Of a stretch of DNA of 64,000 nt, positions 1 through 9,870 are shown one piece after another. The notes below the pieces were generated by a model. It worked only from the letters and a program-made list of their open reading frames with translations, searched no databases and was not told the DNA's origin. How positions within the stretch are numbered: position 1 is the first letter of the stretch; every line of letters begins with the position of its first letter. Origin of the DNA: a virus; IMG/VR virus record IMGVR_UViG_3300009428_000004, positions 10,467 through 74,466 of that record, one strand, 5' to 3'. The translations under genes and the position numbers were made by a program.

Positions 1-256
1 CGGTGACACTTACTCTAGTATCGTCTATGAATGTGAGTCCCAGTTTGGTTTTTGCTGTAACGATCTCATCGTCCATAGATAAACCAGTTCCCTTCTCCGT
101 AGAAATGCTATCACCATCTCTCGTTATTTGTGCAGGGTTGCCCTTTTGCGAAGTAATACTACCAATCGTTTCCGTAGTATTACCCAACGCAAAGGAACTA
201 GCAAAACATAGTATAAATGTAAATAGTAGATTAATTCTGTATGATGTTAATCGCAT
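1..256 (-). CDS. Secreted FecR-domain-like protein, N-terminal part (runs off window edge; not in ORF track)
   Basis: Manual translation MRLTSYRINLLFTFILCFASSFALGNTTETIGSITSQKGNPAQITRDGDSISTEKGTGLSMDDEIVTAKTKLGLTFIDDTRVSV: signal peptide plus FecR-type pattern; start overlaps the curlin-like gene end. Confidence 0.7.
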   Translation of the reverse strand, partial: MRLTSYRINLLFTFILCFASSFALGNTTETIGSITSQKGNPAQITRDGDSISTEKGTGLSMDDEIVTAKTKLGLTFIDDTRVSVT

Positions 257-923
257 TACTATCACCATCAACTGTCATAGTAACTACAGGAATATCTGTA
301 GTAGATTGTGTGAGATTTATCTCATTGAAGTTACTAGACACATTACCGCCAACTGTTATAGTATTCACTGCATCGGCAGCATCCAATTCTAGATTGACTG
401 TGTTATAATCACCAGTGGTCGCTAGAGTTGTAGTCGTATCAGTAACGCTGACCTCTGTTGTACAGGTTGCTATTGTGCCTGTGGTAGAAGCAGTCGATAC
501 TCCGTCCGTAACTGATCCTACAGATGCAACTCCAGAGTTGTCGTTGGTACCGCAGACTGTTACCAGATTGCTGTCGCCTGTCACCGTTGAAGTGAAGGTC
601 GTTCCGGTTGTGGCAATACCCATCACAGTTTCGTTCGAGTCACCAGTATTCAATATATTGATGGTTGTTGAACTAGATCCTGCACTCGTGGATATATCCG
701 TTTTGTTGGAATTACCTTGTTGACTGATATCTATGTCCTGACTATCGCCATTTAAGGTTGTGGCAGTTGTTGAATTACCCACGGTGTTGCCATTACCGGT
801 TTGAGTGATATCGATTGTACTGCTAGAACCAGCCTGCACAATGTACACGTCACTAGCGTGTGTGGTTGTAGCAAAAGCCGCAAATGCGATCAGTGCTATA
901 GTGTAAAGCTTTAAATTGCTCAT
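231..923 (-). CDS. Curlin-repeat-like secreted protein (CsgA/CsgB-like)
   Basis: Signal peptide MSNLKLYTIALIAFAAFATTTHA; repeats IDITQTGNGN, IDISQQGNSN, INILNTGDSN, VTGDSN, TTGDYN, VDGDSN; T/S/N/G-rich; directly downstream of csgG. Start taken at ATG 923. Confidence 0.7.
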   Translation of the reverse strand: MSNLKLYTIALIAFAAFATTTHASDVYIVQAGSSSTIDITQTGNGNTVGNSTTATTLNGDSQDIDISQQGNSNKTDISTSAGSSSTTINILNTGDSNETVMGIATTGTTFTSTVTGDSNLVTVCGTNDNSGVASVGSVTDGVSTASTTGTIATCTTEVSVTDTTTTLATTGDYNTVNLELDAADAVNTITVGGNVSSNFNEINLTQSTTDIPVVTMTVDGDSNAINIIQN

Positions 924-1021
924 ATGTATTACTCCGTTTTGTTCGATCTCTCCCGACAACGAACATATTTTTTTAGTTTTACTTACTCCTCATATCAAAG
1001 GTGTTATAATTTTATAAAGGT

Positions 1022-1810
1022 CTACTTAACGTATTGCCAGTATTCCTTCCTTTCTCCTTCTTTAATCAACTCAACGACGGCTTGCTCTATAGCAACTCTT
1101 ACGGCATAATTGACGGGTTCATTAATAGAATGACCCATTTCTGCCTCTAGCGAGTTTGTGCCCATATCGAAAAATCTAAAGAATGTCATGCTTGTTCCAG
1201 TGCTTATAATAGTTTTTGTAGTTGAAACACTTAACAACACTTCTCCGCTTTGTACGCTTACCATTCTAATAGTTACAGTCACTATGTCCTGTCTGTATTG
1301 GGTACTGGGACCGACACCTAAGTATCGAGCACCTGCACCACCGGTTAGCACATTGGAATCATATCCAATTATGCCTCCCTCTACTAAGACCCCTGCAAAT
1401 AGCATCGGTCTCAATTCTCTTGTATCCTTCACAGCCGCTCGGCTCTGACGAATTATTTGCCTTTCTTTAGTTAGATTTTCTAACCCTATTCTCTCTACTA
1501 CTTGAAACCAAGTGCCTCCTCCAACTTCTTGAAGCGCCTTGATCAGCCAAACTTCAGAGCCCTGCGTGACAGCGGTACTAATGTTAGCCATTCTTTCACT
1601 AGGCTTTCTCTGTCCTGTCTTATCAGTGAACCCATATACTGCTACAACTGCTTTACCTGTAGAAGGAGCTGGCATAGTAAGAAATTCCGTATTTTCATTC
1701 TTAACTACTTTTGCTGTTTCTGGCTCGGGCTTAAATCCAAAGTCTTCGGTCAGTGTAGCACATCCACTTGTAGTCAGTACTAATGCTAATAGCGCAAGAA
1801 ATTGTTTCAT
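1022..1810 (-). CDS. csgG: Curli secretion pore lipoprotein CsgG
   Basis: Lipobox LTTSGC; motifs VAVYGFTDKTGQRK, STAVTQG, WFQVVERIGLENLTKERQIIR, EGGIIGYDSN, GGAGARYLGVG, YRQDIVTV. Confidence 0.95.
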   Translation of the reverse strand: MKQFLALLALVLTTSGCATLTEDFGFKPEPETAKVVKNENTEFLTMPAPSTGKAVVAVYGFTDKTGQRKPSERMANISTAVTQGSEVWLIKALQEVGGGTWFQVVERIGLENLTKERQIIRQSRAAVKDTRELRPMLFAGVLVEGGIIGYDSNVLTGGAGARYLGVGPSTQYRQDIVTVTIRMVSVQSGEVLLSVSTTKTIISTGTSMTFFRFFDMGTNSLEAEMGHSINEPVNYAVRVAIEQAVVELIKEGERKEYWQYVK

Positions 1811-2283
1811 TAGAACGAAAAATCTCCTACAGGAACGTCAAATTCGGAAACGATATCACCATTGGAATCTGTGACAGTTACGTATATTCTACCGCCCTCT
1901 TGTTTCCATGCAATTATATCTCCAAATGGAGTAGTTGCTTCGTACCATTCTCCTTCTATTGTTTCTCCACCACCTTCACCGAATAGCGAGTCCGCTATAT
2001 TCTTAGAGAGGGTTGCATAAATTCTAGACTCTAAATTGTTCTGGAACTTATACGCATTGGTAGATTTCAAATCACGTTCTGCTTCGTCTTCCCGTGCCTT
2101 TTTCTCGTCCTTAATCTCTTTTCTTCTATTAGCCTCTAACTGCTCTATTGTCAGTATGTGCGAACTGTAACCGTTGCCATTAAAAGCTGGAGATACAAAT
2201 ACATGCGTCAGCTCACTTGCTGTCGAATGAGATGTCATCACCGCTGTTAGTACTATCACGGTTGTTATCAAATATTTTTTCAT
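1810..2283 (-). CDS. csgF: Curli assembly protein CsgF-like
   Basis: Signal peptide then ELTHVFVSPAFNGNG, later FQNNLESRIYATLSKNIADSLFG; TAATG-coupled to csgG. Confidence 0.8.
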   Translation of the reverse strand: MKKYLITTVIVLTAVMTSHSTASELTHVFVSPAFNGNGYSSHILTIEQLEANRRKEIKDEKKAREDEAERDLKSTNAYKFQNNLESRIYATLSKNIADSLFGEGGGETIEGEWYEATTPFGDIIAWKQEGGRIYVTVTDSNGDIVSEFDVPVGDFSF

Positions 2284-2536
2284 AATCGTTTTTATCCTGT
2301 TGTTGTAAGATCATGTCCAGTTTAGTTTTGAGCCTAATCAAGTCATTATCTAACATTCTTACTCTATCGATCAGTGCTATCAGTGTCATATGTGACTCGC
2401 CAATAACCGGATCGACCTCTTCCGTTACCCAGTTCCAGATATAGTATATGAAGTACCCTAGTCCTACTGCGGCTATAATTGGAAAGCCGTATTGCGAGAT
2501 CATCTCAGCAATATTAAGTGTTTCTGCCTCAGGCAT
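2213..2536 (-). CDS. Small membrane protein, YvrJ/BhlA-like (GFPI motif + TM + coiled coil)
   Basis: ISQYGFPIIAAVGLGYFIYYIW then LIDRVRMLDNDLIRL; paralogue of 2913..3191. Confidence 0.6.
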   Translation of the reverse strand: MPEAETLNIAEMISQYGFPIIAAVGLGYFIYYIWNWVTEEVDPVIGESHMTLIALIDRVRMLDNDLIRLKTKLDMILQQQDKNDYEKIFDNNRDSTNSGDDISFDSK

Positions 2537-2723
2537 CTTCTTTATCTGATCCTATTTTCATTAACCATCCATTTTCGTTTACAACGAAAGTATCTCCTGG
2601 CTTATATAAGTGGTTGTTTTTAGCTGTTCCATCTTTTTGAACACCCATGACTTCTCCTTCCCACTCTCCCTCAACTTTAAAATGTGCGCCAACTTGGTTA
2701 ATATTATAATCAAGCCAAAGCAT
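2529..2723 (-). CDS. Small hypothetical protein (KxGDTFVV family, copy 2)
   Basis: Likely start MLWLDYNIN at 2723; LYKPGDTFVVNENGWL. Confidence 0.6.
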   Translation of the reverse strand: MLWLDYNINQVGAHFKVEGEWEGEVMGVQKDGTAKNNHLYKPGDTFVVNENGWLMKIGSDKEDA

Positions 2724-2913
2724 TATCTGTATCCTCAAATGCGTCCATAATATTGCCTCTATGTTCGAAGTAGCCACTAGGACCAACTACAAACGTATCC
2801 CCTATCTTCAATAGACCTTCATCGATCATATGAAACTTATCGTCTGGATTGTCTTTTTTGACAACCCTAAACCCGTTATCGAACTTCATTAAGTCGTAGT
2901 CTTTATAGTACAT
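2710..2913 (-). CDS. Small hypothetical protein (KxGDTFVV family, copy 1)
   Basis: LLKIGDTFVVGPSGYF; TAATG-coupled to the upstream gene. Confidence 0.65.
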   Translation of the reverse strand: MYYKDYDLMKFDNGFRVVKKDNPDDKFHMIDEGLLKIGDTFVVGPSGYFEHRGNIMDAFEDTDNALA

Positions 2914-3191
2914 TAATCTTTCCTCGCATCTTTCTGACCATCGGCTCTCGCCACTCTATCCAGGTCTGGGCTTACATTGTGAGCGTGACAAATCATGAGG
3001 TCTATTCTCATGACTTCATTGTTCATCGTCTTAATTCTATTATCTAAGGCTTGTGCAAAGCCTCTTTGTGTTTTGATGTCCGACAATACTCCGTCGAGGA
3101 TAAACCTTAGCGTAAGAAACACGAAAAATCCACCTGACAGGGCTGCCGCAATTGGAAACCCAACATCTGCTATCAAACTTAGCACGTCCAT
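2913..3191 (-). CDS. Small membrane protein, YvrJ/BhlA-like
   Basis: IADVGFPIAAALSGGFFVFLTL then LDNRIKTMNNEVMRID; RBS AAGGAG. Confidence 0.65.
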   Translation of the reverse strand: MDVLSLIADVGFPIAAALSGGFFVFLTLRFILDGVLSDIKTQRGFAQALDNRIKTMNNEVMRIDLMICHAHNVSPDLDRVARADGQKDARKD

Positions 3192-3213
3192 AAATTCACT
3201 CCTTTACTATAGT

Positions 3214-3221
3214 TATTTATA
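3214..3221 (-). promoter_or_regulatory. T4-type late promoter TATAAATA heading the curli operon
   Basis: Exact tatttata on + strand, about 22 nt upstream of ATG 3191. Confidence 0.85.
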
Positions 3222-3244
3222 AAAAAAGGCTCGTTAGAGCCTTT
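3221..3244 (-). terminator. Rho-independent terminator
   Basis: AAAGGCTC-TAAC-GAGCCTTT followed by a T run that merges into the late promoter. Confidence 0.8.
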
Positions 3245-3271
3245 AAAATTAGTAAATAAGTGTGAAGATAC

Positions 3272-3646
3272 TCAGTCTTCCTCGTCTGGATCCCTATCAC
3301 CACTATATTCTATGAATCCTATTAACATAAGAGTCGCAAATATGTCACCAACTGTGCCCATTAAGATGTATGGAAGACAGTAGTAGAATAGTTCAATGTA
3401 ACCAAGCTCATACACGATGAACATTGCCATCAATAGAATCATGCGTATCTGCCACATCTCAGATAGATTTCCCTCTTCTATCTCTATTCGCATATCTTTC
3501 ATTCCGATAAGAACTTGAGTAGTGATGAAGTAAAATAAGGAAGAGTATCCGCCAAGTATTATCATGATGATATATTCTGCTTCTGGGAGGGGATTGACAA
3601 AAACTCTAGCTAGTATTGCTAGACATAATGTATAGATGAATATCAA
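3272..3646 (-). CDS. Hypothetical multi-pass membrane protein
   Basis: Several hydrophobic segments; overlaps the iscU stop. Confidence 0.6.
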   Translation of the reverse strand: MIFIYTLCLAILARVFVNPLPEAEYIIMIILGGYSSLFYFITTQVLIGMKDMRIEIEEGNLSEMWQIRMILLMAMFIVYELGYIELFYYCLPYILMGTVGDIFATLMLIGFIEYSGDRDPDEED

Positions 3647-4044
3647 ATTGCTTCCTCTTTTTGCTTTTGTATTTTGTCTCGTAAATCTTTGACTGCGGTC
3701 TTAATCGCATCTTCGGCAAGTACGGAACAATGTATCTTGACTGGCGGTAATGCCAACTCTTCAGCAATCTGGGTATTCCTGATAGACTCTGCATCATCTA
3801 ATGTTCTACCTTTAACCCACTCTGTTAGTAGTGAGCTAGAGGCAATGGCTGAACCGCACCCGTAAGTTTTAAACTTAGCGTCTTCGATAATACCATCTTC
3901 TCCAACTTTGATCTGTAACCTCATTACATCTCCGCAAGCAGGGGCACCTACCATACCAGTACCAACTTTAGGATCTGTAATGTCGAAAGAACCCACATTG
4001 CGTGGGTTCTCATAGTGGTCGAGTACTTTGTCGCTGTAAGCCAT
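3643..4044 (-). CDS. iscU: Fe-S cluster scaffold IscU
   Basis: YSDKVLDHYENPRNVG, GAPACGDVMRLQI, KTYGCGSAIASSS, LPPVKIHCSVLAEDAI. Confidence 0.97.
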   Translation of the reverse strand: MAYSDKVLDHYENPRNVGSFDITDPKVGTGMVGAPACGDVMRLQIKVGEDGIIEDAKFKTYGCGSAIASSSLLTEWVKGRTLDDAESIRNTQIAEELALPPVKIHCSVLAEDAIKTAVKDLRDKIQKQKEEAI

Positions 4045-4074
4045 AAGAGGCTCCTGTTAACGCATGTACTGTAT

Positions 4075-5265
4075 TTAGTACTGGCTGCCTTCATAGTCTC
4101 CAGTGTTCTGGATTTCTTCACCAGTAGGCTCTTCAGTGGTTACATCAGCATCGATCTTACTGTAGAGATCAAGGAATGCCGCACGGGTATCAGCATCAAA
4201 ACGATTGACACATAACTCGATGGCTTTCATACGATCACTGAAGATCGAGAAGGTCTGTACAATGTGGCACAACCTACGAGTTGAGATAATCTCATCAATC
4301 CCACCATCTTCGAAAGTCTTACGAATCGCTTGAGCCCACTGAACTAGTTTTTCTGTAAACTCTTTATCGTTTGCACCAAACTTTGACATGTGGTTAGTAA
4401 CGATACGCTTCTCAGTAGCCGCTGTTGGGTAAGGTTGCTCAAGAGTAATAGTGAAACGCTCGAGGAATGCCTCATCGATAATCGTAGCCGCAATGAAGCG
4501 ACCCTGTTCATCACCTTGACCTTTAGTGTTAGCAGTAGCAATCACGTTAAAGCCAGGAGCAGGCGTAATCACTTCACCAGTTTTCTTGATAAGAACTGGC
4601 TTGCCTTCTAGCACACCCTGTAGACACATTAGCTTGTTAGAGCCACGGTCAATCTCATCGATCATCAGTAGGGCACCAGCTTCCATCGCTTTGATGACTG
4701 GACCTTTTGCAAAGACTGTCTCGCCATTCAGCAAGCGGAATCCACCAATCAGATCATCTTCATCAGTTTCGGGTGTAATCTGAACACGAACATATTCACG
4801 TTTGGCGTTAGCACAGGCTTGTTCGATCATCATCGTCTTACCGTTACCAGACAGACCGGCAACATACATTGGGTAAAACATATTAGACTTGACGATCTTA
4901 AGAACGTCAGAGAAATATCCCCACTTCACAAAAGTAGGATCAGCAGAAGGTATGTAGACTTCATCCGAAGAGGTAGACTGGACCCTAGCAACTGCTTTTG
5001 CTATGGGAGTCTGCTCGACTTGAGGTGCGGCAACTGGTGCGGCTAAAGGAGCATTCATCTGGATCACATTGCCAGATCCTACCATCTGATAGACACCACG
5101 TGCGACACGAGGCATTTGCTTCATTAGTGTATAAGCGGCAGAGCCAGAAAAGCCCTGTTCTTCAGCGAACTTGAAAAGCTCGGCTCGCTCAAACGAGTCT
5201 TGGTTAGGATTAGATGCTACAAAGGCATCGATTAGTTCAGCTTGGGTTTTTGAAATATTCATCAT
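4075..5265 (-). CDS. cobS: MoxR/CobS-like AAA+ ATPase (T4-like phage 'CobS')
   Basis: Walker A GLSGNGKT, Walker B LLMIDEID, ANTKGQG, FLERF; start likely MMNISK at 5265. Confidence 0.9.
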   Translation of the reverse strand: MMNISKTQAELIDAFVASNPNQDSFERAELFKFAEEQGFSGSAAYTLMKQMPRVARGVYQMVGSGNVIQMNAPLAAPVAAPQVEQTPIAKAVARVQSTSSDEVYIPSADPTFVKWGYFSDVLKIVKSNMFYPMYVAGLSGNGKTMMIEQACANAKREYVRVQITPETDEDDLIGGFRLLNGETVFAKGPVIKAMEAGALLMIDEIDRGSNKLMCLQGVLEGKPVLIKKTGEVITPAPGFNVIATANTKGQGDEQGRFIAATIIDEAFLERFTITLEQPYPTAATEKRIVTNHMSKFGANDKEFTEKLVQWAQAIRKTFEDGGIDEIISTRRLCHIVQTFSIFSDRMKAIELCVNRFDADTRAAFLDLYSKIDADVTTEEPTGEEIQNTGDYEGSQY

Positions 5266-5309
5266 AATATAGGTACTCTCTTCATTGGTTAATCTCAATC
5301 TATACAAGT

Positions 5310-5348
5310 ATTATAGCAGGTTGAGCCACAATGTCAACCATTATTTTC
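5310..5348 (-). promoter_or_regulatory. Early sigma70 promoter cassette
   Basis: GAAAATAATGG-TTGACA-N16-TATAAT with extended -10 TG. Confidence 0.85.
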
Positions 5349-5353
5349 ACTTT

Positions 5354-5557
5354 TTATTGCTCAAATGGCTTGGTTGCAAACCATCGGACGGCATGGTCAT
5401 CTTGGATATCCATTAGATCGACTTTCAGTTCGGCTAACAATACCTTAGTCTCGTGAGGTATTGCACCTGGTCGAATACTTTCTATAGTAGCGAAGGCATT
5501 CTGAGCGGCAGTAATTGCCTGCATTTTTTCTTGAACATTTTGCATTTTCATCTCCAA
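5354..5557 (-). CDS. Small early hypothetical protein
   Basis: ORF between two promoter cassettes. Confidence 0.6.
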   Translation of the reverse strand: MEMKMQNVQEKMQAITAAQNAFATIESIRPGAIPHETKVLLAELKVDLMDIQDDHAVRWFATKPFEQ

Positions 5558-5581
5558 AGGTTTAACTCAATTTCAGATTAT

Positions 5582-5620
5582 ATTTTAACAGGATTGACAC
5601 TAATGTCAACCCTTATTTTC
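5582..5620 (-). promoter_or_regulatory. Early sigma70 promoter cassette
   Basis: GAAAATAAGGG-TTGACA-N16-TAAAAT. Confidence 0.8.
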
Positions 5621-5625
5621 GTTAT

Positions 5626-7839
5626 TTATGCAACTAATTCCGCAAACTTAGTGGTAATTACTCTGTTACCCTTCTTAGATCCACTGAACTTCTTAAAAGC
5701 TCGGGCGATCTGGGCTGGGGTAGCTTCAGCATCAACTTGAAACTCATCATTCTCACCAGACATACTAGCAGACTTGTCGACCATGATGAAGCGGCGATCA
5801 TATCCGTCAGCATTGTCCATGATCCAAACTCCATTATCTCTCATATCTTTCTGAGCCTTTCGTTGGGCAGTAGTGTCCCAAGGCAATAAGCGATGCTGTT
5901 CATATTTGAAGTCTCTTCGAGTACAGATGAAGAAGTTGGCTGTTTGAACATTTTTACCAGCAACAGCGTTCAACAATGCTGAGGTGTTCGAAGAATCGTA
6001 TCCATAACGTGAAGCAATTTCAACTTGCTTTCCCTTGACGTTCATAACGTATCGTTTAGCCCAACCACGATCTTGGTTCTCAACATCTTTTCCGCTAATG
6101 TGTCGAGCAGGATCACTAGCTCCATCTGTCAGAGTAATCAGGTTCATCTTATGCACTGGATTAGTACGCAGGAAGTCCTGAATGGCAAACTGACTAGCTA
6201 GTATTGCCGCATTCAAAGGCGTACTACCTAAACGCTCTAGAGGTCCCATGCATCGTGGTTGCTGACCGTGAAAGAATGAAGTACGCATTGCGTATTCTAA
6301 CTCACTTTTGGACATCTTATTAGAAAACAGTTCGATGAAAACCAGGTCTTCATAATCAAACTTAGTGTTAACACCACCAGCTTGTCTGATATTTGCCAAT
6401 CTGTTACGTCCATTATTATCAGTAGTGAATGCAAAGACCTCGAAAGGAATATTAACTCGCTTGCAGAACTGAACCAGAGATATCGTTTGACGTATCACTG
6501 AATCGAGTTGCTGGTACATTGAGCCAGAATAATCGACTAGCATCATCATGCCGTGGTTCTTACCGTCTGCTAGTGTAGTCACTTGCTTAAACAGGTTATC
6601 GTCATACTTGTAGGCGTGAAGCTTGTTAACGTCAATCGAACCCTTAGTAGAAGTACGGGCTCTGGCTGAACGATAGGCTGCCTTACGCATCTCAAATTCT
6701 TTAGCCATAAGATTTACAACGCCCTTGTTTTCGGACATGAAAGCGTCATAATCTCTGCTCGAATCATCCATCTCGGTTTGATAATCATGTTCAGTAAGCT
6801 TTTTACGAAATTCTTTACGATTTTCTAGCACTTCTTTATAGCCAACTTTAACTATATCGTAGACTGCACGGTTCATGCCTTGAAGAAACAGCTTATCAGT
6901 TTCTTCAACTAGATCACTCATATTCTCACGTTGAGCTTTCTCAGTTTTGATTTCAGGAAGATTTTCAGGTACATCATCAGGCGAATTACCAGCACCGCTA
7001 CTGACTGAACTCTCAGAATTCTCTTCAGACTTCTCTTCAGACTCCTCGCCGCTAGAAGATTTCTCACCCTCTTGATCAGACTCTTCACTTTCACCAGAAG
7101 CTTCACCAGCTCCGGACTCTTCGCCCTCATCACCATCTTCATCAGAGTCGGATTCTGATTCCGAAGGCTCACCCTCTTCACTCTGCTCTTCAGAACTCTC
7201 ACCGAATAGATCGGCTATGTCTTGGGCAGTCATTTCGGACTCTTCAGACTGGCTTTGACCGTTCGTGGTCTCATCACCGTCTTCTTGCTCCTCTTTCTTG
7301 CCGTCACCTAACCAAGCGACCAATTCTTTACAAACATTGGCAACATCTTCGAAAGTTTCGACAGCCATTGCTTTTTTGAAGTAAGGCATTTCCTCTTCAG
7401 AGAACTCGACTTCGACTAGATCACGACCCTTAGCTTTAAGGTTCAATCGATCCATGAAACCCATTTCGTTAATGTCATTATCTTTGGTACCGAATATGTC
7501 TCGATTCATGAGACCAAGATAACCACGTTTGAAATTAGAAACTAGACCAGGATACTTGTCAAGAACTTTACGCTCGATGCGGATATCTTCGACAACGTTC
7601 ATATAAGAATGTGGAACACCAGGAACGGTGATCTCTTCTTTAGTCTGTGGGGTAAATAATGCGTGACCAATTTCATGACCAATCAGAAGATCGGTCTCAT
7701 CAGCAGACATCTCTTTCCAGAGAGGCAAACCAAGAGTACGATTTTCTACATCAAAAAATGCTGTGGGATAGTTGCCCTGCTCAACACTGATATTCTCGTT
7801 GGCAAGCAATCTGGCTAATACTGACTTTGACTGTAACAT
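5626..7839 (-). CDS. CobT-like/VWA protein with N-terminal HEXXH metallopeptidase-like domain
   Basis: LIGHEIGHALFT; long acidic Ser/Glu linker; MIDAS motif LVDYSGSM, later TPLN and ITLTDG. Confidence 0.85.
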   Translation of the reverse strand: MLQSKSVLARLLANENISVEQGNYPTAFFDVENRTLGLPLWKEMSADETDLLIGHEIGHALFTPQTKEEITVPGVPHSYMNVVEDIRIERKVLDKYPGLVSNFKRGYLGLMNRDIFGTKDNDINEMGFMDRLNLKAKGRDLVEVEFSEEEMPYFKKAMAVETFEDVANVCKELVAWLGDGKKEEQEDGDETTNGQSQSEESEMTAQDIADLFGESSEEQSEEGEPSESESDSDEDGDEGEESGAGEASGESEESDQEGEKSSSGEESEEKSEENSESSVSSGAGNSPDDVPENLPEIKTEKAQRENMSDLVEETDKLFLQGMNRAVYDIVKVGYKEVLENRKEFRKKLTEHDYQTEMDDSSRDYDAFMSENKGVVNLMAKEFEMRKAAYRSARARTSTKGSIDVNKLHAYKYDDNLFKQVTTLADGKNHGMMMLVDYSGSMYQQLDSVIRQTISLVQFCKRVNIPFEVFAFTTDNNGRNRLANIRQAGGVNTKFDYEDLVFIELFSNKMSKSELEYAMRTSFFHGQQPRCMGPLERLGSTPLNAAILASQFAIQDFLRTNPVHKMNLITLTDGASDPARHISGKDVENQDRGWAKRYVMNVKGKQVEIASRYGYDSSNTSALLNAVAGKNVQTANFFICTRRDFKYEQHRLLPWDTTAQRKAQKDMRDNGVWIMDNADGYDRRFIMVDKSASMSGENDEFQVDAEATPAQIARAFKKFSGSKKGNRVITTKFAELVA

Positions 7840-8420: not shown

Positions 8421-8976
8421 CGTCTTCTAGACCCTCGTCTAATATATTTCCATGTTCATCGCTTTCTTCTAGCGATACGGTACAATGTATTTCCCAGTAG
8501 CAACCTCGCATATCCCAACCATCTGCTTCGATGCCCTCTTCATACTCTTCATCATAGATGTCGTAGATTTTATCTAGCATCTCATCTTTCTGTTCGACAC
8601 TCAAGACTCCTTCGTCTCCAGCACCGCTAGAGGTGTACTGATTTATCGCCCAGTCACTCCAGCATCCATCGTGTGCCTGAAGAAACTCGTGATCGTAATC
8701 ATCTACATCGATCCAATCTAAATCGGCGGTGGGCAAAAACGGCCATGAGGTGTGATCGGCGCCATAGGATTCTACAGCTTCGTCAAAGGTAATATCACGC
8801 TCCTTGAGCCAGTCATCTAGTTCACCCAGTGTTTCAGGAACTTTTACTACGAAGCTTCCGCCACGATAGCCTTCCTCTTTAACTAAGTGTGTGCTGATAC
8901 CATCGATTTCTTTGGTAAACCTAGTGTACTCGACCATGCTCTTTTTATGATCTGGCGTCATTAGATAATATCTCAT
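8413..8976 (-). CDS. Acidic hypothetical protein
   Basis: 187-aa ORF with RBS, coupled to neighbours. Confidence 0.65.
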   Translation of the reverse strand: MRYYLMTPDHKKSMVEYTRFTKEIDGISTHLVKEEGYRGGSFVVKVPETLGELDDWLKERDITFDEAVESYGADHTSWPFLPTADLDWIDVDDYDHEFLQAHDGCWSDWAINQYTSSGAGDEGVLSVEQKDEMLDKIYDIYDEEYEEGIEADGWDMRGCYWEIHCTVSLEESDEHGNILDEGLEDDD

Positions 8977-8986
8977 ATCTTTTCTC

Positions 8987-9538
8987 CTATGCTACCTGAA
9001 ACCAATCAGGAATTTCACGTTTAGTCCAAGCCATCTTGAACCTCTCTTGTTTTGTGTGATAGAATGCACGATATGATTTTACGACATCTTCCATCATACA
9101 CTGCGGTGCCGCACCCATCGCTAACGGCCATTTAGACATTTCACCCTTTGGTATGTTCGTGGGTTGCTTCTCTAAAGCCTCTAGCAACAACGATTCACTT
9201 TTGTGTACTTTACCATAGCGATACGTGTACTCTTTACAAAGTGCTTTGAAATGCACCCAGTGCCAAGAGTAGTTACCGCTATTCATCATCGTCCACACAG
9301 TGCATGGATGATTGAAGTGTACAGCTTTGTAAAACGTTTGTTCACGCCAGTCTGGGAGCGTGTAGTGCGGCACCATTCTTTTGCCAGACTTTGATGGACG
9401 TTTTGACATTGTACCATCGAGCATTCGATGTGCCGTAGATAGCATTTGGGCGCTCTCGACAATCATCTTTACCACGTGCTTATCGCATTGCATATTAGCG
9501 GCGATTACGGGATCTCGGTGTAGTACAAATACGTTCAT
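8987..9538 (-). CDS. Pyrimidine-dimer DNA glycosylase / endonuclease V-like protein
   Basis: MNVFVLHRDP...CDKHVVKMIVESAQMLSTAH, HFNHPCTVW, EYTYRYGKVHKS; TGATG start at 9538. Confidence 0.75.
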   Translation of the reverse strand: MNVFVLHRDPVIAANMQCDKHVVKMIVESAQMLSTAHRMLDGTMSKRPSKSGKRMVPHYTLPDWREQTFYKAVHFNHPCTVWTMMNSGNYSWHWVHFKALCKEYTYRYGKVHKSESLLLEALEKQPTNIPKGEMSKWPLAMGAAPQCMMEDVVKSYRAFYHTKQERFKMAWTKREIPDWFQVA

Positions 9539-9870
9539 CAGTGGTTTCTTCCTCCATTGAACACACACACGAAGTGTAGTCCCAAATCAGAGTCATTATA
9601 GACCCTATGGTATTCTCCTGAGTCTACTAGTATTATGTCACCAGCATCGACAGGAAATGTTTTGTCATCGATCTGCATACTGCCTCTACCTTTAGTAAAG
9701 TGATACACTTCTTCTTGACCTTCGTGTGAATGACCAGAGGTCATTTGCTTGGCTCTGAGCATAGTACTACTCACAGTCAAGTCTTTTAGGTGGTTGTTGT
9801 CCTTGACAGTGTAAACATCTGTGTCATGAACAACTTCCCCACCCACATCGGCAATACTAACTTTAAGCAT
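9538..9870 (-). CDS. Cupin-domain protein
   Basis: GHSHEGQEEVYHFTKGRGSMQIDDKTFPVDAGDIILVDSGEYHRVYN. Confidence 0.85.
   Translation of the reverse strand: MLKVSIADVGGEVVHDTDVYTVKDNNHLKDLTVSSTMLRAKQMTSGHSHEGQEEVYHFTKGRGSMQIDDKTFPVDAGDIILVDSGEYHRVYNDSDLGLHFVCVFNGGRNH

What the first reader, a model, noticed from the sequence alone, without database searches (positions are those of the whole stretch)
231..923. Phage-encoded curlin-like amyloid subunit candidate
Seen: secreted, Thr/Ser/Asn/Gly-rich protein with recurring [I/V]xIxQxG[N/D]xN-type units (TIDITQTGNGN, DIDISQQGNSN, TINILNTGDSN, VTGDSN, TTGDYN, VDGDSN) and two cysteines flanking a central insertion. Known: curlin repeats carry the xQxGxxN signature and stack as a beta-solenoid. 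Inference: this is the substrate of the adjacent CsgG, so the phage encodes the fibre and not only the pore; the Cys-bracketed loop may be a displayed adhesive element.
Basis: partly seen in the sequence, partly recalled or inferred. Interest (0 to 1): 0.7.

Follow-up and report, generated by a model that had tools for sequence, protein, structure and literature searches.

The report
Phage curlin subunit, already described
This marine T4-like phage gene encodes a secreted curli-type (amyloid fibre) repeat protein next to the phage's own curli secretion pore. The same gene at the same position is annotated in cultured relatives and was described in a 2022 paper, so it is a confirmed but known feature.

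Summary
Window 231..923 (-) encodes a 230-aa, Thr/Ser/Asn/Gly-rich protein with a Sec-type signal peptide. It has six G[ND]xN turns (0.39 expected by shuffling) and two cysteines, C124 and C154.

Tests support curlin homology at the family level:
- A profile of 38 homologues hits only the two solved curli subunits in the PDB (E 1.6e-5 and 3.3e-5).
- 31 of 38 homologues hit Pfam Curlin_rpt; the protein alone scores 18.4 bits, below the 20.7 cut-off.
- AlphaFold2 gives a strand-arc-strand beta-solenoid (pLDDT 78).

The gene order CsgF-CsgG-curlin-FecR-(second curlin)-adenylate cyclase holds in 78 of 80 related viral loci that have CsgG.

This is not new. It is the positional orthologue of HTVC008M gp016 ("curlin-associated protein, CsgB") and Melnitz gp101. 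Wittmers et al. 2022 described exactly this module in pelagiphages.

- One Cys pair is conserved in 59 of 60 unique viral homologues. It usually brackets 7 residues and is expanded to 29 here.
- This gene is the fastest-diverging of the four core genes of the module.

Fibre formation, CsgG-dependent secretion and any adhesive role of the loop remain untested.

The parts
231..923 (-). Curlin-repeat gene (230 aa, P0001). It is the third gene of the phage type VIII secretion module.
   Evidence: ORF and translation. Full-length orthologue of HTVC008M gp016 (29% identity, E 2e-13). Family profile hits curli structures 8c50 and 8enq.
932..935 (-). Shine-Dalgarno GGAG, 9 nt upstream of the ATG at 923
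   Evidence: Read from the sequence. Homologues start at the same Met.
855..923 (-). Signal peptide, residues 1-23, with cleavage predicted after THA
   Evidence: n-h-c layout and the conserved A-x-A|SDVYI junction in 38 homologues. pLDDT is below 50 here.
705..854 (-). N-terminal canonical curlin rungs, residues 24-73 (SDVYIVQ-AGSS-STIDITQ-TGNGN ... QDIDISQ-QGNSN). This is the most conserved part.
   Evidence: Mean top-residue frequency is 0.81 for residues 24-46. Invariant residues: Y27 I28 Q41 N46 G59 Q68 G70 N73. This stretch aligns to CsgA and 8c50 repeats and carries the Pfam Curlin_rpt and NCBIfam CsgA partial hits.
555..704 (-). Degenerate rungs, residues 74-123, where the turns read N/T-x-G-D-S-N in place of Q-x-G-x-x-N
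   Evidence: Invariant G94 N97 G116 N119. Strand pairs E87-93/E96-102 and E108-115/E118-123 in the model.
462..554 (-). Cys-bracketed variable loop, C124 to C154 (29 residues between). It is an insertion in an arc of the solenoid.
   Evidence: The Cys pair is present in 59 of 60 unique viral homologues. The loop is 7 residues in most and 29 only in this clade. It is the least conserved segment (top-residue frequency 0.29, 39% gaps), with pLDDT 60-66.
234..461 (-). C-terminal rungs, residues 155-230. The protein ends one residue after a canonical N-x-I-x-I-x-Q motif (NAINIIQ-N-stop), with no cap.
   Evidence: Invariant N174 and Q206; nearly invariant G220 N223 Q229. Strands E163-229 with pLDDT 80-89.
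1022..1810 (-). csgG: outer-membrane lipoprotein pore (262 aa, lipobox TSG|C)
   Evidence: Pfam CsgG 3.7e-54. 48% identical to HTVC008M CsgG.
1810..2283 (-). csgF (157 aa). Its stop overlaps the csgG start.
   Evidence: Pfam CsgF 1.9e-13, phrog_35372 1.3e-40.
2..271 (-). 5' part of the FecR-domain gene. It overlaps the 3' end of the curlin gene and continues beyond the window start.
   Evidence: Full 372-aa ORF at L003 9619..10737(-), Pfam FecR 1.5e-7. It lies directly downstream in 77 of 77 loci that have it.

Best explanation
The gene encodes a Sec-exported member of the curlin-repeat (CsgA/CsgB) family, of the degenerate-repeat kind.

Proposed mechanism (all steps inferred):
- During infection the phage makes its own CsgG lipoprotein pore and CsgF in the host outer membrane.
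- The unfolded curlin crosses the inner membrane by Sec and then passes through CsgG-CsgF.
- It folds outside the cell into a two-sheet strand-arc-strand beta-solenoid of about eight rungs.
- Both ends of the mature chain are bare canonical curlin motifs. The N-terminal one is the most conserved segment and the C-terminal rungs are above average. This is what a head-to-tail polymerising subunit needs, so curli-like fibres on the infected cell are the most likely product.
- The second, slower-evolving curlin may act as anchor or nucleator. It lies just outside the window and has an extra N-terminal domain.
- The conserved Cys pair probably forms a disulfide that staples the base of a surface arc. 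In this clade that arc has grown from 7 to 29 residues.

Shown here: the sequence family, the predicted fold and the gene linkage. Inferred: secretion route, polymerisation, the disulfide, and which curlin is the major subunit.
For: - Family profile against all PDB sequences: the only hits below E 0.1 are the two solved curli subunits, 8c50 (1.6e-5) and 8enq E. coli CsgA (3.3e-5).
- 31 of 38 family members hit Pfam Curlin_rpt at E<=0.01. P0001 itself has three sub-threshold stretches and an NCBIfam CsgA hit at E 3e-4.
- hhalign of this family against the second phage curlin family, which passes Pfam's cut-off: probability 96.7%, E 4.4e-10.
- The invariant residues are the Q, G and N of the repeat turns.
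- The AlphaFold2 model is all-beta with paired strands every 22-27 residues (pLDDT 78, pTM 0.76). VIA-align returns only beta-helices or solenoids. These include the CsgA fibril 8enq_A at Z 12.7, with 109 of 111 residues aligned at 20% identity.
- Synteny: csgG ends within 500 nt upstream on the same strand in 78 of 80 viral loci. FecR follows in 77 of 77. The same order is seen on a 296-kb metagenome contig.
- Orthology to HTVC008M gp016 and Melnitz gp101, both annotated as curlin proteins.
- Literature: Wittmers 2022 identified CsgA/B repeat genes at this position in myo- and podo-pelagiphages and found them in metatranscriptomes.
- Contigs from three RNA libraries of two studies, 90-99% alike, lie on parts of the operon, including 231-503. 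This is a weak hint only.
Against: - P0001 alone is below Pfam's gathering score (18.4 against 20.7 bits).
- The middle repeats lack the Gln of the canonical motif.
- Foldseek found no significant PDB match. The CsgA structural match has rmsd 8.5 A and scores no better than unrelated beta-helices. Sleutel 2023 stresses that many non-polymerising proteins share this fold.
- There is no E. coli-type N22 targeting segment.
- Buchholz 2022 saw no clumping of Melnitz-infected cells.
- No experiment on any phage curlin was found in the papers read.
Confidence: 0.75

Rival explanations
1. It is a curlin-family protein secreted through CsgG, but it does not polymerise. It acts as a monomeric or short beta-solenoid surface coat, for example masking receptors against superinfection, or as an adaptor.
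For: - The central repeats are degenerate and an arc carries a 29-residue insertion.
- The protein is strongly acidic, has no Trp and only seven Phe/Tyr.
- It is the fastest-diverging of the four core genes in 48 of 50 loci, as expected for an exposed recognition surface.
- The beta-solenoid fold is shared with many non-polymerising proteins.
- No clumping was seen in Melnitz cultures.
Against: - Both termini are uncapped canonical curlin motifs, and the N-terminal one is the best conserved part.
- CsgF, whose known role is fibre nucleation and anchoring, is retained in 79 of 81 loci.
- Bacterial curlins with degenerate repeats and arc insertions are still classed as CsgA.
Confidence: 0.15
2. 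It is the minor, CsgB-like nucleator or anchor. The 330-aa second curlin downstream of FecR is the bulk fibre subunit.
For:
- The second curlin has more canonical repeats (Pfam 31.6 bits) and a high-confidence solenoid (pLDDT 85-96 over residues 160-270).
- The second curlin is also better conserved.
Against: - The second curlin is not universal: Wittmers reports it as 'frequently' present and found more often in myoviruses. Here tblastn matches appear in 62 of 81 loci, some of them on the first curlin gene itself. The P0001-type gene is always present next to csgG.
- The second curlin carries an extra N-terminal alpha/beta domain, which fits an anchor or tip better than a bulk subunit.
Confidence: 0.25
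3. It is not a curlin. It is a Thr-rich beta-roll or beta-helix of another kind (ice-binding-like or Ca-binding) whose curlin hits come from composition.
For: - 21.7% Thr.
- Structural matches of equal rank to a Ca-dependent antifreeze beta-helix (Z 13.4) and a ryegrass ice-binding protein (Z 10.8).
- The Pfam score is below the cut-off.
Against: - The profile search of the whole PDB picks out only the curli subunits.
- The invariant columns are the Q, G and N of the curlin turns, not the Thr.
- The motif count far exceeds composition-matched shuffles.
- It has fixed linkage to csgG/csgF.
Confidence: 0.03

Closest known systems
Pelagibacter phage HTVC008M gp016 (YP_007517882, 'curlin-associated protein; CsgB') and Methylophilales phage Melnitz gp101 ('curlin associated repeat protein')
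   Same: - Same position directly after csgF-csgG and before the FecR gene.
- Same length (228-239 aa).
- Same A|xDxYIxQxG mature N-terminus.
- The alignment to gp016 covers the full length.
   Different: - Only 29-34% identical.
- Their alignments show no counterpart to the long Cys-bracketed loop of this clade.
Phage T8SS module of Wittmers et al. 2022 (PMC9599517): HK-CsgF-CsgG-CsgA/B-FecR-(CsgA/B)-adenylate cyclase in HTVC023P-type podoviruses and pelagimyophages
   Same: Identical gene order here: CsgF, CsgG, curlin, FecR, second curlin, CHASE2-adenylate cyclase.
   Different: - The small genes upstream of csgF gave no histidine-kinase Pfam hit here.
- The paper does not mention the Cys pair, a signal peptide or a structural model.
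E. coli CsgA / CsgB (PDB 8enq) and Pontibacter korlensis CsgA R15.5 (PDB 8c50)
   Same: - S/N-x-hydrophobic-x-hydrophobic-x-Q strands joined by x-G-x-x-N arcs.
- Strand-arc-strand solenoid.
- Sec signal and a csgG neighbour.
   Different: - No N22 leader.
- The Gln is replaced by Asn or Thr in the middle rungs, and the turn Asp (GDSN) is common.
- Repeats are 22-27 residues rather than about 22-23.
- There is a Cys pair with an arc insertion.
- There are no CsgE, CsgC or CsgD partners.
Degenerate-class bacterial curlins with arc or strand insertions (Sediminicola sp. A0A0S1S4K2, Roseovarius indicus A0A0T5PAS6; Sleutel et al. 2023, PMC10192328)
   Same: Incomplete motifs and insertions in the arcs that leave the solenoid core intact.
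   Different: - Those are cellular proteins.
- No Cys staple was reported in the passages read.
- No direct sequence comparison was made here.

Membership tests
Curlin repeat proteins (CsgA/CsgB, Pfam PF07012) | The single protein passes the curated Curlin_rpt gathering score | tested here: not met
   18.4 bits against a cut-off of 20.7, in three stretches. The NCBIfam CsgA equivalog scores 20.7 bits against a cut-off of 160.
Curlin repeat proteins (CsgA/CsgB, Pfam PF07012) | Homology to curlin repeats at the family or profile level | tested here: met
   31 of 38 homologues hit PF07012 at E<=0.01, best 1.3e-7. The profile hits 8c50 at 1.6e-5 and 8enq at 3.3e-5 as the only PDB matches below 0.1. 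hhalign to the Pfam-positive second phage curlin gives E 4.4e-10.
Curlin repeat proteins (CsgA/CsgB, Pfam PF07012) | Tandem repeats with conserved Q/N-x-G-x-x-N turns, more than chance gives | tested here: met
   6 G[ND]xN against 0.39 in shuffles, 0 of 5000 reaching 6. The Q, G and N of the turns are the invariant columns.
Curlin repeat proteins (CsgA/CsgB, Pfam PF07012) | Strand-arc-strand beta-solenoid fold | tested here: met
   AF2 gives paired strands per rung, pLDDT 78. Only beta-helix or solenoid matches appear, with CsgA 8enq_A at Z 12.7 and 109/111 aligned but rmsd 8.5 A. The fold is not specific to curlins.
Curlin repeat proteins (CsgA/CsgB, Pfam PF07012) | Sec signal peptide | tested here: met
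   Read from the sequence and from the conserved cleavage junction in the family. No predictor was run.
Type VIII secretion (curli) system substrate | Encoded with csgG and csgF | tested here: met
   Adjacent in the window. csgG lies directly upstream in 78 of 80 related viral loci.
Type VIII secretion (curli) system substrate | CsgG-dependent secretion | not testable with these tools
   Needs a secretion assay with and without the phage csgG.
Functional amyloid | SDS-resistant, ThT/Congo-red-positive fibres | not testable with these tools
   Needs purified protein or infected cells.
Enterobacterial CsgA | Gly-rich N22 targeting segment ahead of the repeats | tested here: not met
   The mature chain starts directly with the repeat motif SDVYIVQ. 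That N22 is specific to enterobacterial CsgA is from my own knowledge. The absence of CsgE in Alphaproteobacteria and in the phage modules is from the papers.

The most novel reading that the evidence does not exclude
The phage curlin is a fast-diversifying display scaffold. A disulfide-stapled arc, 7 residues in most relatives and grown to 12-29 in some clades, projects from every subunit of a fibre on the infected cell. This arc carries the binding specificity, for example for sibling host cells, particles or competing phages. Arc length and sequence would then evolve under diversifying selection.
Probability: 0.12. Interest if true: 0.55.

Novelty: already known. Interest (0 to 1): 0.25.

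Why it matters
Phage-encoded curli could make planktonic SAR11- or OM43-type cells sticky during infection. That bears on the proposed 'sibling capture' of hosts, superinfection exclusion, aggregation and particle formation in the ocean.

Two earlier papers stated that the fibre genes were missing (PMC7029224, PMC9004378). One later paper and the GenBank records say they are present.

This window adds an independent confirmation with a structural model. It also adds two small details: a conserved Cys pair around a variable arc, and the highest divergence rate among the four core genes. It opens no new question. The open question is experimental: are fibres made at all?

Tried and rejected
- **DNA and protein search of the phage collection.** megablast of window 1-6000 and tblastn of the curlin found nothing. 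The cause is probably divergence and the low-complexity filter. CsgG did find HTVC008M and Melnitz.
- **Foldseek against the PDB.** No match at E<=0.001; CsgA 8enq_A ranked 18th at E 2.0.
- **ESM Atlas shape search.** Only TM<0.3 rows, uninformative.
- **Homodimer prediction of the mature protein** (complex prediction). No verdict, score 0.00 in both runs; not used as evidence either way.
- **phmmer of the phage CsgF against the PDB.** It did not find E. coli CsgF, so conservation of the CsgG-binding N-terminal peptide could not be checked this way.
- **An internal late promoter between csgG and the curlin gene.** TATAAAAT is present here and in the nearest relative. An exact TATAAATA occurs in only 2 of 53 distinct intergenic regions, and a TATAAA[AT] heptamer in 5. 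I therefore rejected it as a conserved feature.
- **Scan of 185,579 bacterial and archaeal genomes.** One locus was found, an 8.9-kb contig of a Polynucleobacter MAG carrying the same module. The scan relied on one N-terminal peptide pattern, so it does not show that bacteria lack relatives.
- **Parts of the operon without RNA-library contigs** mean nothing.

Full report
**The feature.** Window 231..923 on the minus strand is an ORF of 230 codons. The ATG is at 923, preceded by GGAG at 935..932. The product starts with a Sec-type signal peptide (MSNLK, a hydrophobic run, then THA|SD). The rest is 21.7% Thr, 11.7% Ser, 10% Asn and 8.7% Gly, with 21 acidic and 2 basic residues.

The turn motif G[ND]xN occurs six times, against 0.39 expected from 5000 shuffles of the mature sequence, none of which reached six. 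The spacing fits a period of 22-27 residues with two degenerate turns. The two cysteines are C124 and C154.

**Genomic context.** The window is part of a 91-kb IMG/VR viral contig. It encodes a T4-type DNA polymerase, 53% identical to Phage C48C1 and 47% to T4-like cyanophages.

Directly upstream on the same strand lie csgF (1810..2283, Pfam 1.9e-13) and csgG (1022..1810, Pfam 3.7e-54). Downstream, running over the window's start, are:
- a FecR-domain gene;
- a second curlin gene of 330 aa that passes Pfam's Curlin_rpt cut-off (31.6 bits);
- a 73-aa ORF;
- a CHASE2-adenylate cyclase.

A terminator-like hairpin followed by TTTTATAAAT lies at 3244..3225, ahead of four small genes that precede csgF.

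**Is it a curlin?**
- Alone, the protein is just under Pfam's threshold (18.4 against 20.7 bits, three stretches). It also gives a weak NCBIfam CsgA hit (E 3e-4).
- It has many metagenomic homologues: 50 in the word-indexed search and 173 representative clusters in the exhaustive search.
- In an alignment of 38 of them, the invariant columns are Y27 I28 Q41 N46 G59 Q68 G70 N73 G94 N97 G116 N119 N174 Q206. Apart from Y27 and I28 of the first strand, these are the Gln, Gly and Asn of the repeat turns.
- 31 of the 38 hit Curlin_rpt at E<=0.01.
- A profile of the alignment, searched against all PDB sequences, finds only the two solved curli subunits below E 0.1. These are 8c50 (1.6e-5) and E. coli CsgA 8enq (3.3e-5).
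- The profile also matches the second phage curlin family (hhalign probability 96.7%, E 4.4e-10).

Homology to curlin repeats is therefore supported at the family level, mostly through the N-terminal 100 residues.

**Fold.** AlphaFold2 with this alignment gives an all-beta model (pLDDT 78, pTM 0.76). It has two strands per 22-27-residue rung. A lower-confidence hairpin (pLDDT 60-66) lies between the cysteines.

Foldseek gave nothing significant. The exhaustive VIA-align search returned only beta-helices and solenoids. The CsgA fibril chain scored Z 12.7 with 109 of 111 residues aligned at 20% identity, but rmsd 8.5 A. It ranked level with SufD-type and antifreeze beta-helices. Sleutel et al. 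2023 point out that this fold alone does not show polymerisation.

Read against their motif scheme, the canonical N/S-x-hydrophobic-x-hydrophobic-x-Q strands are at 24-30, 35-41, 62-68, 200-206 and 223-229. The middle rungs are degenerate. The mature chain begins directly with such a strand and ends one residue after one, with no leader and no cap. The N-terminal rung is the most conserved segment (top-residue frequency 0.81). This is what a head-to-tail polymerising unit would need; it is an inference.

**Linkage.** A scan of IMG/VR found 294 loci encoding a relative. Among the 80 kept, plus one locus from a bacterial MAG, csgG ends within 500 nt upstream on the same strand in 78 of the 80 loci that have it. 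FecR follows in 77 of 77. This holds over CsgG identities from 45% to 91%. A 296-kb metagenome contig shows the same order.

The pattern-limited scan of 185,579 species' genomes found one locus. It is an 8.9-kb contig binned with Polynucleobacter that carries the same module and may itself be viral.

**What is already known.**
- The Melnitz record annotates both curlin genes, the FecR gene and the cyclase.
- P0001 aligns over its full length with gp016 (29% identity, E 2e-13) and over its N-terminal half with Melnitz gp101.
- Zaragoza-Solas et al. 2020 reported CsgG/CsgF in pelagimyophages but wrote that CsgA and CsgB were missing.
- Buchholz et al. 2022 wrote the same for Melnitz and saw no clumping.
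- Wittmers et al. 2022 then explicitly identified CsgA/B repeat genes, FecR, a second CsgA/B and the cyclase in both podo- and myo-pelagiphages, in the order seen here. They found the genes at all 65 GOV2.0 stations and in metatranscriptomes.

The finding is thus an independent rediscovery of a described feature.

- *Cys pair.* Exactly one Cys pair in the mature protein is conserved in 59 of 60 unique viral homologues. It usually brackets 7 residues. It brackets 12, 14 or 26 in some clades and 29 only in this window's clade. One clade has C-x3-C at the C-terminus instead.
- *Loop.* The loop is the least conserved segment. It sits where an arc of the solenoid is expected. A disulfide stapling the base of an arc insertion is a reasonable reading. 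Neither the disulfide nor any adhesive role was tested.
- *Divergence.* This curlin is the fastest-diverging of the four core genes in 48 of 50 loci. Median identity is 33%, against 56% for CsgG, 54% for CsgF and 45% for FecR.
- *Second curlin.* It is much better conserved. Its model has an N-terminal alpha/beta domain, a helix and a high-confidence six-to-seven-rung solenoid. This suggests a division of labour between the two, but not which one is the bulk subunit.

**Expression.** Contigs from three RNA libraries of two studies, 90-99% alike, lie on parts of the operon. One covers 231-503 and another spans 135-302. DNA carry-over is not excluded and these are relatives of the window's phage, so this is a weak hint. 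It is in line with Wittmers et al.

**Verdict.** The gene is real and is a curlin-family protein. It is almost certainly the cargo of the neighbouring phage CsgG-CsgF. Fibre formation is likely but unproven. The kind of feature is already in the literature and in GenBank annotations, so interest is low to moderate.

Noticed in passing
L003 8664..9656 (-), i.e. G000:C1, about 0.8-1.8 kb before the window start: Second phage curlin (330 aa). It has a signal peptide, an N-terminal alpha/beta domain of about 100 residues with no Pfam hit, a helix, a high-confidence curlin solenoid (pLDDT 85-96) and a C-terminal C-x5-C. It is far better conserved than the first curlin (most listed homologues 59-92% identical).
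   Followed up: partly
L003 6277..8313 (-): A CHASE2 sensor fused to an adenylate/guanylate cyclase domain closes the module. A FecR-domain protein sits between the two curlins. Both are absent from bacterial csg operons according to Wittmers 2022.
   Followed up: partly
Literature against GenBank: L005 6857..7576 and 8635..9651 (Melnitz MZ577097): The Melnitz paper states that the phage lacks csgA and csgB. Its own GenBank record annotates two 'curlin associated repeat protein' genes flanking a FecR gene.
   Followed up: yes
L009 (CAYVBV010000079.1, 8.9-kb contig of a Polynucleobacter MAG): The only hit in the species-genome collection carries csgF-csgG-curlin-FecR in the phage order. It may be a phage contig binned into a freshwater betaproteobacterial MAG, which hints at hosts beyond SAR11 and OM43.
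   Followed up: no
window 2213..3191 (-): Four small genes precede csgF. Two encode similar single-pass membrane proteins (92 and 107 aa). None gave a Pfam hit, although Wittmers 2022 labels the genes at this position histidine kinases.
   Followed up: partly
window 3225..3244 (-): A terminator-like hairpin is followed directly by TTTTATAAAT, which resembles a T4-type late promoter. It lies ahead of the first small gene of the module.
   Followed up: no
window 3643..7839 (-): By eye there are three further genes: an IscU/NifU-like scaffold protein (133 aa), an AAA ATPase of 410 aa and a 737-aa protein with an acidic low-complexity region. These may be the CobS/CobT-like pair reported in pelagimyophages. 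None was tested here.
   Followed up: no
L044, L045: These are the only loci where csgG and csgF lie on the opposite strand, about 3.4 kb upstream of the curlin gene. The module has been rearranged there.
   Followed up: no
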